From Psilocybe cubensis (Eukaryota), in the NCBI GenBank assembly GCA_017499595.2, contig CM039006.1, positions 1,736,001 through 1,800,000 of the forward strand: a stretch of DNA of 64,000 nt. Direction: 5' to 3'. This document shows positions 37,097-42,000 of the stretch, piece after piece (the first letter of the stretch is position 1; each line of letters begins with the position of its first letter). Position numbers and translations under genes: made by a program. The notes beneath the pieces were generated by a model that saw only the letters and a list, made by a program, of their open reading frames with translations, did no database searches and was not told where the DNA came from.

Positions 37097-40000
37097 TCAG
37101 GATAATCGAGGACGAGGTAAGAAACCCAAACTCACATTTTTCTTGTCTGCAGAATATGCTGCGCGAAGTTTTTCCTGCAGTGCGGGGTCATTGATACGAG
37201 CCAGATGAACCAGTGAGGTCACTTCAGCCTTATTGTTTAAGAGCAATTCAATAACTTTATTGTGACTTTGGAAACATGCTGCCTGTAGTGCATTGCCATG
37301 ATAGCCCCCTGACACGTTCACATCTGCCCCATTGTTCAACAAGAGGTCCACAAGACTATAATGGCCCTTAGAAGATGCCGCCTGGAGTGCAGTGGCAAAG
37401 TAGCCAGGCACGGTATGGTTGACATCTGCGCCGTGTTTCAGGAGTGCTTTGGCTGCCAATAGATTGCCCCGATTTGATGCCACCTGGAGTGCAGTCTTGT
37501 GCTTGCTATCCACAGCATTGACATTTGCACCGTGCTTTATGAGTAGTTCAATCAGCGATTGATTGCCTTCATAAGACGCTGCCTGGAGTGCAGTGCCGAA
37601 CTTTCCAGCCATGGCGTTGACGTCCGCACCGTGTTTGAGGAGTGCTTCAACCACCGATTGACGACTGCATCGTAGAGTTGCAGACTGAAGAGCAGTGCCA
37701 TACTTGCCACTCACGACATTGACATCCGCGCCATGCTTCAGAAGGGCTTGGACCACCGATTCATGACCCCTGTAGCAGGCCGCTTGGAGTGCAGTGCCGT
37801 ATTTCCCTGCCACAGCATTGACATCAGCACCATGTTTTAAGAGTGTTTCAACCACTAATTCATGGCCCCTATTAGATGCTGCCTGGAGTGCCGTGCCATA
37901 CTTGCCACCCACGGTGTTGACATTGACATCTATGGCGCGTTTCTGGCAGACCTTAGACGCATGAACACTGCTTCTAGAGGATGCTGCCTCCAATTGCTCT
38001 CTGTCTGGGTTATTATTATCCACCTCTGCCAATAGGTGTTCGACCACCCCAACAAGTCCTAGCAACGATGCCCACTGTAGTGGCCTTGGCTCAATTTCCA
38101 CTAGTCCCTTCTTCAGACATTGACTTTCTTTTGGACTGAGGTCAAATTTTCCAATGGCGACCTTTGTTAGAACAGGGATTCCTGATCTTAATAGACGTGC
38201 TGCCATCTTGAACACGGTAGTATCTGCATCTATGCCATGGTATCCAACATGGAGGTCCCAGGTCTCTGCAGCATAATTTTTGAGCGGGAAAGCAGAGGCA
38301 TCAGATGTGTCGTTGATTAAGTAAGTTTCCAAGAGATACGACATCAATGTTTTTGAGATATCAATGCGAGATTGAGCGGTATTGGCCAGACAAAATCTGT
38401 TTTGAACTCGAGTGGAGATGAGATATTCCTTCACCGAGAAATGAGACAATTTAATGAATTCCTCTTTCCAGGGTCTGTGAGCATCTGTTTGATTTATATC
38501 CAAGGAAAGCAGGTCTCACTGGTGTTTCGTTCATCTTTACTCATTACAACCAATCCTCCACATAGCTCCAGGATATCAGATGGGTTGAGATACCGTCTTT
38601 TAGGATTAAAAACTGCCTGATCATCCGAAGAGAATTCAATCGTAACAGTTTCAGCGAGTTCACTAAGTGTTATTGCTTCCATTGAGAATGCAAGGAACTG
38701 AAGAAACCTTCGAAGATCCAAAGCGTCTTCGTCCTTGCATTTACGCAGAATTCGGTCATATATTTCGTCGAGGCCATTTGGAAACTTGGTCAATGCTTTC
38801 TCCAACTTGGACAAGGTTGAACACTGCTCCAATTCAGCCAGCATTAGTGCAGTGTATCGAAACCTTTCACCGTAATCAGTGCTGCTGTACAATGATGCGG
38901 CAATGACAAAGGTAGAACTTACGATCCGTCAGCACAATCCCGTAATTTTGATTCTACCTCACCCCGAATCTGTTCATTGAATCGCTGAAGCTTTGAACAT
39001 TCCATTTGCTTGCTGATATAGTCCTCAATGTCTTTGTTTGTAGGATTAACGACGTCAATACTGTCGCCGCCTAGATCTTTAAAAACGTTTGTGATGTCTG
39101 TCTCATGTCGACTTGTGATTAGCAAATGAATATCAGTTTGTAGTTGTGTGTTGGTGAGGAGTTTCCGAACCCAATCAAGTGTCTTTTGGCGATCTGAGCA
39201 CTCGTCTAGGGCATCAATGGCAATGAACACGCGGTCAAATCCTTCTAGAATATGTTGCATGGTCTCCTCGAGTTGATCATCCAATGGTTGCGAAGCACCA
39301 CATTTTGTATGAAGGTCTACCATCTCTTGCGGAATCCCTCCATGACGGGAGTCGCATAGCTGGTACGCCAGTGATCGTATGAATTTTATATGTAGCTGGG
39401 AGTCTGTCTGTCCGTCGCGTGCATCGAAGAAGAAATAAACAATTCCAGTCGATGAGCTGGGGTCCGGAAGTTTATTGATAATCGAGGCCCTGTGAATTTC
39501 GTGGGTTTAAATTACAGATCGTCTGAGGACCTTCAAACTTACATTAAGATTGTCTTGCCACACCCCGCTATTGTCACAAAGTCAATATTACCTTCACTTG
39601 AAGATTACAGAACTCAGGATGATTACCTTTTCCGTGGACCCAGATGAAGCCAGGATGATGTAGCCATCGTCCGAATCTCTCGTCCTCGAGAAACCATGAA
39701 CATGTCTGGCGCTGACGCTTTCCATGAGCTTCGTTGTAGTTTTTTGAAATGTCGATTGGGCGGTCGGAGGGCCACAACCACTTGAAAATCTTTTCCGCTT
39801 CAATAAATTACGTTTAGTGTTAGTATGAGGCCAATTAGTATCTAAGCTGTGATCAGAGCGACGTACCTAGGGCGTCGTCCTTCACCTTGCAAACCTCATT
39901 TTTGACCTCGTTCATAATATCCTCTAATTATGACACGATTTTCCGTTGAAAAAGCGAACATTGAGAAATAGAGTTGTACTCACTAGTTTTGGGCCTTTCT

Positions 40001-42000
40001 TTATGTTGTAGTGCTTACATTCTGAGTGTGCGAACAGCCTATTGGATGACATTCTGATAAAATTAGCACAGACCGTGGTAAATTTAAACTCGTGTCGTGG
40101 TAAAGCTGTGGTCAAGTCGTGGTTTCATCAAAACCAATGGTGTACGTGTTGGTATTATCCTAGGGTGGTCTCTCTAAAGATGGTCTTCCGTAAAGCAGTT
40201 ATTTCAACAGATGGTTAAGGGCGCAATTCTTCCAGATAATCTGAAATTTAACTGAGTTTATATCGGCCTATCACGGCAAAGCATATTTTGTCATGCTGTG
40301 GGTGTTTCCGGCACCTTTACTTAGATTATTTTGATGCAGAAGGAGCCGAGATAAGTTGGAAACAAAAAAATCTGAGAAAAAATGACAAAAGTTGTTTGAA
40401 AGTGAACAGGACTTGGTATAGGTTCATATAAACCGGGTATTACTGTATCATTGATAAGAAAACCATTTGATACAGCAATGTATACCTAGGTCACAGTACG
40501 ACCACACCAAAGTACGTTGTTCAACCAAGGGTGTATGTAGTAATGACTAAGTACTTCATTACGAAACCTGACATAAATGTACGTATCAAAGTTCTAGTCT
40601 TGCTATTTTTGTAGCGACCAAATCCTGAAGCCGGACACTTCGCATTTTCAACGGAAAATCGTGTCATATCTAATTGACCAATGCTATTGAACGCCGGAGC
40701 TCATGAGACATCAAACACACGTACTGCTTTCTTTCACCGCCTTATTCGTTTCCAGCTGTATTCTCTCATAGAACCTCTCTTTTAGAACCAGACATCTTCT
40801 TTGGCACTCTGTGATACGTGAGCTCATATCACCAAAGTACAATCTCAAAGTCCGTTCTGCATACACAGGTCAGTCAGGTTATCATAACAAGGCGTATGGG
40901 ACAAATACCGGAGAAAGAGGGTTGGGTATACTCGTGAATGAGTGATGCAACCTGCAAGGATTGAAAGCCAATTTCTTTGATGAGGTCGACTGCGTCTGGT
41001 ATTCTTGGCAAGTCAAGCTTCGCGGTTGTAGTAGCGAGCATCTCGCGCAAGGTTTCAGCAAGCTCTCGGATTGATTGGTCCTGGATTTCCGTTTGATGTG
41101 TTGCCTGTTGAAAAGACAGATTAGTTTACATATATTTTGGATATAAAGCACTATACACTGTAGAGAGTTGAAATGACCGTCCAGGATGTCTTTAGTATCG
41201 GATGCGCCTAATTATAAATTGAATAAACAAATGCGCAGTAACATTGTCATCGCCATTGAGCCGACCACGAGCCACTCACGTCAGCGACACTGTTCATCAA
41301 GACCCTTGTATTCTGCAGCACAGGTCCCAATACTAACAACGCACGTTTGCTGACGCCTTCGATGCCTTTAAGATCATCCACATCTCCGTCAACTTTCTTC
41401 ATGAAGTCCGAGATCAACTCATCGCGTGTCGCACACAGAGAAAGAGACATGTTGATTTGCGCAATGGTTTTTCCCTTTCTATCCACCAGCGCAAACGATT
41501 TCGAATCTATACGAAATATTTTCAACTACATTTCCCAAATTCTAAGGATAAACCTCTCACCGTTATCGAGCAATCGCTCAATTCGTTCCGCAAATTGTGC
41601 CACATGTACCTTGGTTTGAGGGATTTTTCCTATTATCCCTCCTTTAAAACCGCGATGGAGCTCAACTTTGACTACCGAAGAAGGTGTAAAACCGCTGTTG
41701 CGCAAATAAGCGACCGAACCAGACAAAGGTTTATCGCAACACTCACATTTTGTTATCCGAGTCCCATTTCCAAGAAAGCTCTCGGGAACGAGATTGGGAT
41801 TTCTTCGATTTTATTACTTTGTGGTTGTCGACGTAGATGTGAACCCAATAAAAGGATCGGTTTTTATCGTTCTTCAAGATGTCGCCTTCGACATCGATGC
41901 CTAGATAGCAAATCAGGAAATGTATTTGTCACAACATATTCTATATTAACTTACTGGATATAATTCCACTGAGGAGCAACTGGTGGGCGTCGAGATCCAT
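37097..42000 (-). CDS. Fungal NLR-like protein: C2-like N-terminus, helical linker, NACHT NTPase, ankyrin repeats
   Basis: ATG 42000. Exons splice in frame to a C2-like region (YWVHIYVD...LSWKW...VKVELHR), TCSWFL, Walker A GKAGCGKT, YFFFD, Walker B IAIDALDEC, LLITSR, LSHFSVKEYL and ankyrin repeats. The TIR element lies at one splice acceptor. Confidence 0.88.
37235..37925 (-). repeat. Array of ~7 similar ankyrin repeats (~99-bp units)
   Basis: GKYGTALQAA..G...VV..LLKHGADVN is repeated; GCCTGGAGTGCAGT and ACATTGACAT recur on the + strand. Confidence 0.93.
39929..40668. mobile_element. 740-bp non-autonomous TIR element (MITE-like) with 6-bp TSD
   Basis: 30-bp TIRs TATGACACGATTTTCCGTTGAAAA(A/T)GCGAA at 39929-39958 and 40639-40668 (1 mismatch). 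Direct repeat TCTAAT at 39923-39928 and 40669-40674. No transposase ORF. Confidence 0.92.

What the first reader, a model, noticed from the sequence alone, without database searches (positions are those of the whole stretch)
39923..40730. TIR element whose TSD duplicates the NLR gene's 3' splice site: possible full-length/truncated switch
Seen: on the coding (minus) strand the intron starting GTACGT (~40722) ends CAATTAG|A, and the 6-bp TSD (ATTAGA) contains that AG, so an acceptor now exists on both sides of the element. The distal AG removes the element as a ~800-nt intron and restores the frame (...AVKES-K-DIMNEV...). The proximal AG reads ~49 codons into the element to a TGA (40521-40523), leaving only the C2-like/helical N-terminus without NACHT or ankyrins. 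I found no other lesion in the gene. Inference: either a recent knockout allele or a splice-tolerated insertion that modulates an immune receptor.
Basis: partly seen in the sequence, partly recalled or inferred. Interest (0 to 1): 0.7.

Follow-up and report, generated by a model that had tools for sequence, protein, structure and literature searches.

The report
Transposon inserted at NLR splice site
A small, recently moved DNA transposon sits exactly on an intron's 3' splice site in a Psilocybe cubensis immune-receptor-like gene; other strains lack it, so it is an ordinary insertion allele whose effect on splicing is still untested.

Summary
A 740-bp non-coding element (39929-40668) has 30-nt terminal inverted repeats (29 of 30 paired) and a 6-bp duplication, ATTAGA. 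It sits at the 3' end of a 55-nt intron in a minus-strand NACHT-ankyrin NLR gene of Psilocybe cubensis. The duplication contains the acceptor AG, so one AG lies on each side of the element.

The insertion is strain-polymorphic. All 3 DNA runs laid show the precise empty site, which skips 746 bases (740 + 6). The element belongs to a family at roughly ten-fold depth whose flanks diverge exactly at 39929 and 40668.

One run that behaves as RNA joins 40725 to 39923, so the AG in the duplication is the gene's real acceptor. An empty allele gives the same junction. That run's allele matches the empty-site contig of X6 at 2 of 2 diagnostic positions, so the junction does not show the element being spliced out.

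The proximal AG keeps its whole intron and reads 49 codons to the TGA at 40521-40523. I judge the allele most likely null or leaky. Splice-out through the distal AG, perhaps helped by the predicted repeat hairpin, remains possible. A regulated switch has no support.

This is a new member of a known kind, of modest interest.

The parts
39929..40668 (.). 740-bp non-autonomous TIR transposon (MITE-like), 38.6% GC, longest stop-to-stop frame 68 aa
   Evidence: In one search the family depth is about ten-fold that of the flanks, and reads from other copies diverge exactly before 39929 and behind 40668.
39929..39958 (.). terminal inverted repeat, left arm
   Evidence: 30 nt, 97% complementary. The one mismatch, at 39953, is polymorphic among family copies (table 3).
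40639..40668 (.). terminal inverted repeat, right arm
   Evidence: The arms pair in both the minimum-energy and the centroid RNA folds.
39923..39928 (-). target-site duplication copy ATTAGA (minus strand) containing the distal acceptor AG (39925-39924)
   Evidence: The empty-site joint 39922 to 40669 skips 746 = 740 + 6 bases.
40669..40674 (-). target-site duplication copy ATTAGA containing the proximal (original) acceptor AG (40671-40670)
40670..40724 (-). original 55-nt intron (GTACGT...TTAG), intact upstream of the element
   Evidence: In one search, yTnAy motifs lie 41 and 34 nt upstream of the AG, and upstream AGs end at intron positions 25 and 41.
40725..40856 (-). 132-nt exon upstream of the element (RTLRLY...AVKES); the public model P0001 skips it
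   Evidence: An RNA contig covers 40725-40799 and joins to 39923. The segment is conserved in 3 of 3 paralogues and in 5 of 6 further homologues fetched.
39867..39923 (-). 57-nt exon downstream of the element (K-DIMNEV...DDAL)
   Evidence: RNA joints at 39923/40725 and 39797/39867.
40521..40523 (-). TGA that ends the frame entered from the proximal AG, after 49 element-encoded codons
37100..42000 (-). NLR gene: N-terminal beta-rich plus helical region, NACHT/NPHP3_N, ankyrin repeats. 100% identical over the 65-aa query exon to the public Psilocybe cubensis protein P0001, which maps along the whole gene.
41157..41207 (-). 51-nt micro-exon missing from the public model P0001
   Evidence: RNA joints 41103/41156 and 41206/41279. 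It aligns with 3 of 3 paralogues.

Best explanation
A member of a multi-copy family of short non-autonomous TIR DNA transposons recently inserted into one haplotype of Psilocybe cubensis, at the last bases of a 55-nt intron of a NACHT-ankyrin NLR gene. The staggered cut duplicated the 6 bases ATTAGA, which straddle the intron/exon boundary, so the acceptor AG now exists on both sides of the element. This part is shown.

The consequence is inferred. The donor, the whole original intron, its branch region and the proximal TTAG|A acceptor are untouched, and they are transcribed about 740 nt before the distal copy. Splicing should therefore mostly keep using the proximal AG. The mRNA then runs into the element, stops after 49 foreign codons, and lies upstream of many exon junctions, which makes it a likely target of nonsense-mediated decay.

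The allele is most likely a null or leaky loss-of-function variant of a fast-evolving receptor gene, and not an evolved switch. A minority of transcripts may use the distal AG and give the normal protein.
For: **Structure**
- TIRs, duplication and lack of coding capacity.
- The precise empty site (joint 39922 to 40669, skipping 746) appears in X6 (one 28.7-kb contig), in X7 (one contig) and in 16 raw reads of X13 from 11 start places. That is 3 of 3 DNA runs laid.
- Element depth in X13 is about 360-550, against about 20-65 in the flanks.
- Loose ends from other copies begin exactly at 39929 and 40668, with consensus agreement of 0.4.

**The AG is the true acceptor**
- An RNA contig of X10 joins 40725 to 39923, with CT..AC ends on the plus strand. 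Five other introns of the same gene are also removed in X10.
- 3 of 3 paralogues are colinear across this junction.

**Continued use of the proximal AG**
- The intron and the first exon base are unchanged.
- No yTnAy branch motif lies within 120 nt upstream of the distal AG, and the nearest stricter YTRAY match (CTAAT) is 139 nt away.
- The gene's other 6 introns are 52-72 nt long, against 801 nt for splice-out.
- The principle that the 3' splice site is chosen mostly by proximity to the branch site comes from the abstract of PMC11482624, seen in the listing.
Against: - No RNA from a strain known to carry the insertion was examined, so the splicing outcome is inference only.
- The predicted RNA fold pairs the two TIRs in both the minimum-energy and the centroid structures (z = -2.55 against 20 shuffles). 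That would loop out the element, bring the distal AG within a few nucleotides of the proximal one, and put the proximal UAG at the base of the stem.
- In yeast, such stems shorten the distance from branch point to 3' splice site and mask other AGs (PMC3239191, abstract).
- The intron's own upstream AG, ending at position 41, is skipped in RNA. The simple first-AG rule therefore does not fully describe this intron.
- The TIR supplies a TTCAAC preceded by a T-run about 22 nt before the distal AG, resembling the TTCAAT of the original intron (read).
- X10 showed no contig running from the exon into the element, although its allele is probably the empty one.
Confidence: 0.55

Rival explanations
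1. Splice-tolerated insertion. The element is removed with the intron as one 801-nt intron through the distal AG. The 30-bp TIR hairpin helps by looping out the element, so the allele still makes essentially normal full-length receptor. The event is then an intron expansion with little phenotype.
For: - The distal AG restores the exact reading frame and a protein colinear with 3 of 3 paralogues.
- The TIR stem is present in both the minimum-energy and the centroid folds.
- Stems between branch point and 3' splice site shorten the effective distance and mask other AGs in yeast (PMC3239191, abstract).
- Transposons that recruit a splice site from their duplication are documented (PMC9860276, passages).
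- The junction 40725|39923 is seen in X10, but an empty allele gives the same junction.
Against: - The proximal acceptor and its intron are intact and are transcribed first.
- No branch-like motif lies within 120 nt of the distal AG.
- All other introns of the gene are 52-72 nt long.
- X10 matches X6's empty-site contig at 2 of 2 diagnostic positions (41375, 41491), so its junction does not count as support.
Confidence: 0.25
2. Exon skipping, as in the public gene model. The donor at 40908 is joined to the distal AG at 39924, dropping the 132-nt exon together with the element. The protein stays in frame but lacks 44 residues.
For: P0001 reads ..PSFS-E-DIMNEV.. and so uses exactly this join. 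Both exons are in phase 1, so the frame is kept.
Against: - The model looks like a predictor's way around the element. The same model also misses the RNA-supported micro-exon 41157-41207.
- The passages I read of a P. cubensis assembly paper mention only FunAnnotate, with no RNA evidence from the strain (PMC8220353). I have not shown that P0001 comes from that assembly.
- The skipped segment is conserved in 3 of 3 paralogues and in 5 of 6 other homologues fetched.
- X10 RNA includes the exon.
Confidence: 0.08
3. Functional switch. Both AGs are used at appreciable and possibly regulated levels. The allele then yields the full-length receptor and also a stable N-terminal-only protein that modulates signalling.
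For: - Two identical TTAG|A acceptors are brought together by the predicted hairpin.
- Short N-terminal-only homologues are annotated in Galerina marginata, for example P0015 (361 aa) and P0010 (210 aa), and they end near the same linker.
Against: - No expression data support it.
- The stop codon lies far upstream of many junctions, which favours decay.
- The insertion is absent from 3 of 3 other DNA runs laid, so it is a young variant and not a conserved arrangement.
- The short Galerina models may be fragments or pseudogenes.
Confidence: 0.07
4. Assembly artefact. The element was placed in the gene by mis-assembly of a repeated sequence.
For: - The family is multi-copy.
- I laid no reads from the runs that may be the source of the window (X1-X4), so the filled junctions were not confirmed at read level.
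Against: - A complete element with exact family ends, flanked by a perfect 6-bp duplication of the empty-site sequence, is the signature of real transposition. A collapse or chimera would not produce it.
- The public model P0001 shows the same interruption, although it may come from the same assembly.
Confidence: 0.03

Closest known systems
Non-autonomous TIR (class II) transposons / MITE-like elements in fungal genomes
   Same: Terminal inverted repeats, a target-site duplication, no coding capacity, many near-identical copies, a presence/absence polymorphism between strains, and relatives that share only the termini.
   Different: At 740 bp it is at the upper end of what is called a MITE. 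The superfamily is unknown: I found no transposase partner, no whole genome is held, and the metagenome scan for the TIR gave 0 matches. From recall only, a 6-bp duplication is unusual for the common fungal superfamilies (hAT 8 bp, Mutator 9-10 bp, Tc1/mariner TA, PIF 3 bp).
Introners: transposons that create spliceosomal introns and recruit a splice site from their target-site duplication (PMC9860276, passages read)
   Same: It is a TIR plus duplication element lying within a gene, and the duplication carries a core splice dinucleotide, so precise removal would leave the mRNA unchanged.
   Different: It landed in an existing intron's acceptor, not in an exon. It carries no 5' splice site of its own and relies on the host donor. 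Its removal by splicing is not shown, and whether other copies lie in genes was not testable. That paper reports fungal (ascomycete) introners as lacking TIRs and duplications.
Leaky transposon-insertion alleles in which the element is spliced from the pre-mRNA (maize Ds/dSpm alleles; recalled, no paper read)
   Same: A DNA transposon lies in a transcribed region, and its effect on the gene depends on which splice sites are used.
   Different: In those cases splice sites inside the element ends are used and the outcome was measured. Here the candidate site is the duplicated host acceptor and nothing has been measured.
Structure-assisted 3' splice-site choice in yeast (PMC3239191, abstract)
   Same: A stable stem downstream of the branch region could shorten the effective distance to a far AG and mask nearby AGs. 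The TIR stem is predicted here.
   Different: The loop here is 680 nt, the stem is supplied by a transposon, the organism is a basidiomycete, and there is no experimental support.
Fungal NACHT-ankyrin NLRs with a C2-type N-terminus (PMC4986451, passages)
   Same: NACHT/NPHP3_N and ankyrin repeats are present. [quoted passage not shown]
   Different: Pfam finds no C2 domain in this protein or its homologues. The function of this receptor is unknown.

Membership tests
Non-autonomous TIR DNA transposon (MITE-like) | Terminal inverted repeats at both ends | tested here: met
   30-nt arms, 97% complementary. The terminal word occurs only at the two ends, with 0 expected by chance.
Non-autonomous TIR DNA transposon (MITE-like) | Target-site duplication confirmed against an empty site | tested here: met
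   ATTAGA lies on both sides. The empty site skips 746 = 740 + 6 bases in X6, X7 and X13.
Non-autonomous TIR DNA transposon (MITE-like) | Multiple copies elsewhere in the genome with the same ends | tested here: met
   Depth is about ten-fold that of the flanks in X13, X6 and X7. Variable flanks start exactly at 39929 and 40668. Only one copy lies in the window.
Non-autonomous TIR DNA transposon (MITE-like) | No transposase coding capacity | tested here: met
   The longest stop-to-stop frame is 68 aa across the six frames.
Non-autonomous TIR DNA transposon (MITE-like) | Assignment to a superfamily through an autonomous partner or transposase | not testable with these tools
   No genome is held and the metagenome scan gave 0 matches. 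Relatives that share only the termini are visible as loose ends at 39967 and 40637, but their sequence was not obtainable.
Introner (intron-generating transposon) | Element removed precisely from mRNA by the spliceosome | tested here: inconclusive
   The junction 40725|39923 is seen in X10, but an empty allele gives the same junction, and X10 matches X6's empty-site contig at 2 of 2 diagnostic sites.
Introner (intron-generating transposon) | A splice site is supplied by the target-site duplication | tested here: met
   The AG of ATTAGA is the acceptor used in RNA. This holds at sequence level only for the distal copy.
Introner (intron-generating transposon) | Creates a new intron at a previously intron-less position; many copies act as introns in genes | tested here: not met
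   The site already held a 55-nt intron. The location of the other copies was not testable.
Fungal NLR (NACHT + repeat domain) | NACHT-type P-loop NTPase domain | tested here: met
   NPHP3_N at 5.9e-38 and NACHT at 2.5e-13 in P0001. The exons in the window hit the same families.
Fungal NLR (NACHT + repeat domain) | C-terminal repeat domain | tested here: met
   Ank at 6e-44 on window:37097-38515.
   No Pfam C2 hit up to E = 10 in two Galerina homologues (P0015, P0019) or one exon of the window gene, up to 0.1 in three further N-terminal exons, or up to 0.01 in P0001 and P0002. A low-confidence model of homologue P0015 (mean pLDDT 47) shows strands at residues 35-155 followed by helices. The C2 name comes only from sources.

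The most novel reading that the evidence does not exclude
The transposon's own inverted repeats fold the pre-mRNA so that the 740-nt element is looped out. The duplicated acceptor then sits a few nucleotides from the original one, making a transposon-made tandem acceptor. One allele of a fungal NLR would give both the full-length receptor and an N-terminal-only protein, in a ratio set by hairpin formation and therefore by temperature or transcription speed. It would also be a caught-in-the-act example, in a basidiomycete, of a TIR element extending an intron by recruiting a splice site from its duplication.
Probability: 0.1. Interest if true: 0.65.

Novelty: new member of a known kind. Interest (0 to 1): 0.32.

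Why it matters
Fungal NLR genes vary greatly between strains, and transposon insertions are one expected source of that variation. This case is clean: the ends are exact, the empty site is known, and an otherwise intact gene is hit on a splice acceptor.

Because filled and empty alleles both exist in available strains, it is a ready natural experiment. It can show how a short-intron fungus chooses between two identical acceptors 746 nt apart, and whether a transposon's inverted repeats can rescue splicing.

It also shows that the public gene model at this locus is wrong in two places. If the allele is a plain null, it is one more presence/absence-type variant in a receptor repertoire, of local interest only.

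Tried and rejected
- **Whole genome.** None is held, so copies of the element and an autonomous partner could not be located.
- **Other copies in the window.** None besides the element itself.
- **Metagenome scan for the 24-nt TIR word.** 0 matches.
- **Sequencing runs.** No listed holder is on record as RNA. X10 is only guessed to be RNA. It behaved as RNA when laid, with six introns removed, but its genotype at the insertion site is unknown and probably empty.
- **Zygosity of X13.** The tables do not settle whether X13 also carries the filled allele. At 40669, 11 of 11 listed reads carry a non-window letter, so none supports the filled junction there, and 16 reads show the empty site.
- **Exonisation inside the element.** The only strong donor-like site (GTGAGT at 39983) gives a piece that is out of frame and contains stops.
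- **Pfam on the N-terminal region.** No family passes its cut-off. DUF7708 and RPW8 hits on Galerina homologues are sub-threshold.
- **Structure of homologue P0015 from a 10-row alignment.** Mean pLDDT was 47.4, too poor for a fold search, so none was run.
- **Literature.** A search for Psilocybe cubensis plus transposable element (8 papers held the terms, 7 listed, listing only) showed nothing on this element family. A search on fungal NLRs and transposable elements (listing only) showed no report of this allele. I therefore know of no description in print, within those two searches.
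Full report
**What is in the sequence**

On the minus strand the region reads: exon, GTACGT, intron, CAATTAG|A, element, ATTAG|AGGATATT.

- The repeat finder gives inverted arms at 39929-39958 and 40639-40668: 30 nt, 97% complementary, 680 nt apart.
- The 24-nt terminal word occurs only at these two places in the window with up to 3 mismatches, against 0 expected in 100 shuffles.
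- The six bases ATTAGA (minus strand) flank the element at 40674-40669 and 39928-39923.
- The element is 740 bp and 38.6% GC. Its longest stop-to-stop frame is 68 aa, and it has no other copy in the window.

**The gene**

Stop-to-stop frames and Pfam show a minus-strand gene with an N-terminal region that has no Pfam family, then NPHP3_N/NACHT, then ankyrin repeats. A 65-aa exon is 100% identical to a public Psilocybe cubensis protein, P0001 (1094 aa). Three paralogues in the same species are 74-80% identical over that exon. P0001 maps along the window over residues 1-1085 of 1094, and I saw no frameshift or internal stop other than the element.

Exact coordinates:

| Feature | Position |
|---|---|
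| Upstream exon | 40856-40725 |
| Donor GT | 40724-40723 |
| Proximal AG | 40671-40670 (original intron 55 nt) |
| Distal AG | 39925-39924 (intron 801 nt) |
| Downstream exon | 39923-39867 |

From the proximal AG the frame runs 49 codons to TGA at 40523-40521. From the distal AG it gives ..KES-K-DIM... In an alignment, 3 of 3 paralogues are colinear across this junction (..KES-Q-DAI.. and ..KEN-Q-DMI..).

**The public model is a work-around**

P0001 joins ..PSFS-E-DIMNEV... It therefore skips the 132-nt exon 40856-40725 together with the element, and it also lacks a 17-residue segment that the paralogues have. The skipped exon is conserved in 3 of 3 paralogues and in 5 of the 6 further homologues I fetched; P0019 ends before it.

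**Reads from public runs**

One search listed 15 coded runs. I laid four of them on 38800-41700: X10 (guessed RNA), X13 (raw DNA reads), X6 and X7 (contigs).

1. *Empty site.* A joint from 39922 to 40669 that skips 746 bases is present in one 28.7-kb contig of X6, in one contig of X7, and in 16 raw reads of X13 from 11 start places. That is all 3 DNA runs laid. Since 746 = 740 + 6, these strains carry the uninterrupted gene with a single ATTAGA. This proves a transposition with a 6-bp duplication and shows that the insertion is polymorphic.
2. *A multi-copy family.* Depth over the element in X13 is about 360-550, against about 20-65 in the flanks, and the contig word depths of X6 and X7 show a similar excess. 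Hundreds of reads run off into unrelated sequence exactly before 39929 and behind 40668 (consensus agreement 0.4), which confirms the ends. Other loose ends at 39967, 40058, 40107 and 40637 (agreement 0.85-0.99) point to relatives that share only the termini. At 40293 and 40540, essentially all reads and all contigs of the three DNA runs differ from the window copy (1 of 360 X13 reads at 40293 agrees with it), so this copy has two private letters.
3. *RNA.* X10 contigs remove six GT..AG introns of this gene, of 53, 59, 69, 801, 52 and 72 nt. X10 therefore behaves as RNA, and my exon model is confirmed, including the micro-exon 41157-41207 that P0001 lacks. The 801-nt joint is 40725|39923, carried by one contig of depth 7.9 with 57 letters on its shorter side.

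**Why the RNA junction does not settle the question**

An empty allele, after removal of its 55-nt intron, gives exactly the same 40725|39923 junction.

- X10 differs from the window at 41375 and 41491. At both places it carries the letter of X6's empty-site contig and of X13; X7 shares it only at 41375. That is 2 of 2 diagnostic positions that X10 covers.
- X10 has no depth over the element interior, 39964-40545.
- It does not show that the element can be spliced out.

**Which acceptor should the insertion allele use?**

*For the proximal AG:*
- The donor, the entire intron and the first exon base are unchanged, and they are transcribed about 740 nt earlier.
- No yTnAy motif lies within 120 nt upstream of the distal AG, and the nearest stricter YTRAY match (CTAAT) is 139 nt away.
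- The other 6 introns of this gene are 52-72 nt long.

*For the distal AG:*
- The RNA fold of 39890-40740 pairs the two TIRs in both the minimum-energy and the centroid structures, with z = -2.55 against 20 shuffles.
- That stem would loop out the element, leave the distal AG a few nucleotides beyond the proximal one, and place the proximal UAG at the base of the stem.
- In yeast, stems between branch point and 3' splice site shorten the effective distance and mask other AGs (PMC3239191, abstract).
- The intron also skips its own upstream AG at position 41 in RNA. Its branch point is therefore probably the non-canonical TTCAAT about 17 nt from the acceptor, and the TIR carries a similar TTCAAC about 22 nt before the distal AG.

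I weigh these as 0.55 for a mostly proximal outcome (truncated frame, probable decay, a null or leaky allele), 0.25 for mostly distal, 0.08 for exon skipping, and 0.07 for a functional dual output. The remainder goes to artefact or other outcomes.

**Comparison with what is known**

- The element meets the tested criteria of a non-autonomous TIR transposon. Its superfamily could not be determined.
- The closest conceptual relatives are introners, transposons that recruit a splice site from their duplication (PMC9860276, passages). This element hit an existing intron, carries no donor of its own, and its splicing is unshown. It is therefore not filed as an introner.
- C2-type N-termini are reported for a few basidiomycete NLRs (PMC4986451, passages), but Pfam finds no C2 here.
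- A model of the Galerina homologue P0015 was too poor to use, at mean pLDDT 47.4.

**Verdict**

It describes a young, strain-polymorphic transposon insertion allele of an NLR gene, which is a known kind of event. The switch idea is untested and, on present signals, less likely than a simple loss-of-function or leaky allele. Filled and empty alleles both exist among sequenced strains, so the decisive RNA test is straightforward.

Noticed in passing
window 41157-41207 (minus strand): A 51-nt micro-exon (17 residues) is supported by two RNA joints in X10 and aligns with 3 of 3 paralogues, but it is absent from the public protein model P0001.
   Followed up: yes
window 40856-40725 (minus strand): The public model P0001 skips this conserved 132-nt exon and joins 40909 to 39923, apparently to get past the transposon in frame.
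   Followed up: yes
window 39929 / 40662 (element family, in runs X13 and X7): Reads and a contig join 40662 back to 39929 with one extra A between (19 reads in X13, one contig in X7). Several opposite-strand joints also occur at the element ends. These suggest tandem or head-to-head copies, or circle junctions, of the family elsewhere in the genome.
   Followed up: no
window 40638-40672 (run X10): RNA contigs contain only the terminal 31 nt or so of the element, flanked on both sides by unrelated sequence (summed word depth of that bin about 23). A solo end or a relative of the element is therefore transcribed at other loci.
   Followed up: no
window 40293 and 40540: The window's copy differs at these two positions from essentially all family reads and all contigs in X13, X6 and X7 (1 of 360 X13 reads at 40293 agrees with it). 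These are either two private substitutions or a source copy that is absent from those strains.
   Followed up: partly
window 40684-40683 (AG ending at position 41 of the 55-nt intron): An upstream CAATAG inside the intron is not used in RNA, which suggests a non-canonical branch site (TTCAAT) just before it. A similar TTCAAC lies in the TIR about 22 nt before the distal AG.
   Followed up: partly
homologues P0015, P0010, P0019, P0006 (Galerina marginata): Short annotated proteins of 167-361 aa consist of the N-terminal region only, with no NACHT or ankyrin part. P0015 and P0010 end close to the linker where the transposon sits here; P0019 ends before the conserved exon, and P0006 was not read. 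They may be real stand-alone genes or fragments.
   Followed up: partly
P0019 residues 161-260; P0015 residues 188-292: The helical part gives sub-threshold Pfam hits to RPW8 (E = 0.0036) and DUF7708 (E = 0.0065 and 0.063), hinting at a helical-bundle effector-type domain.
   Followed up: no
window 39122, 41188-41415 (run X13): Several positions are about half-and-half in the raw reads of X13, as expected for two haplotypes in one dikaryotic sample. Both haplotypes appear to lack the insertion.
   Followed up: no
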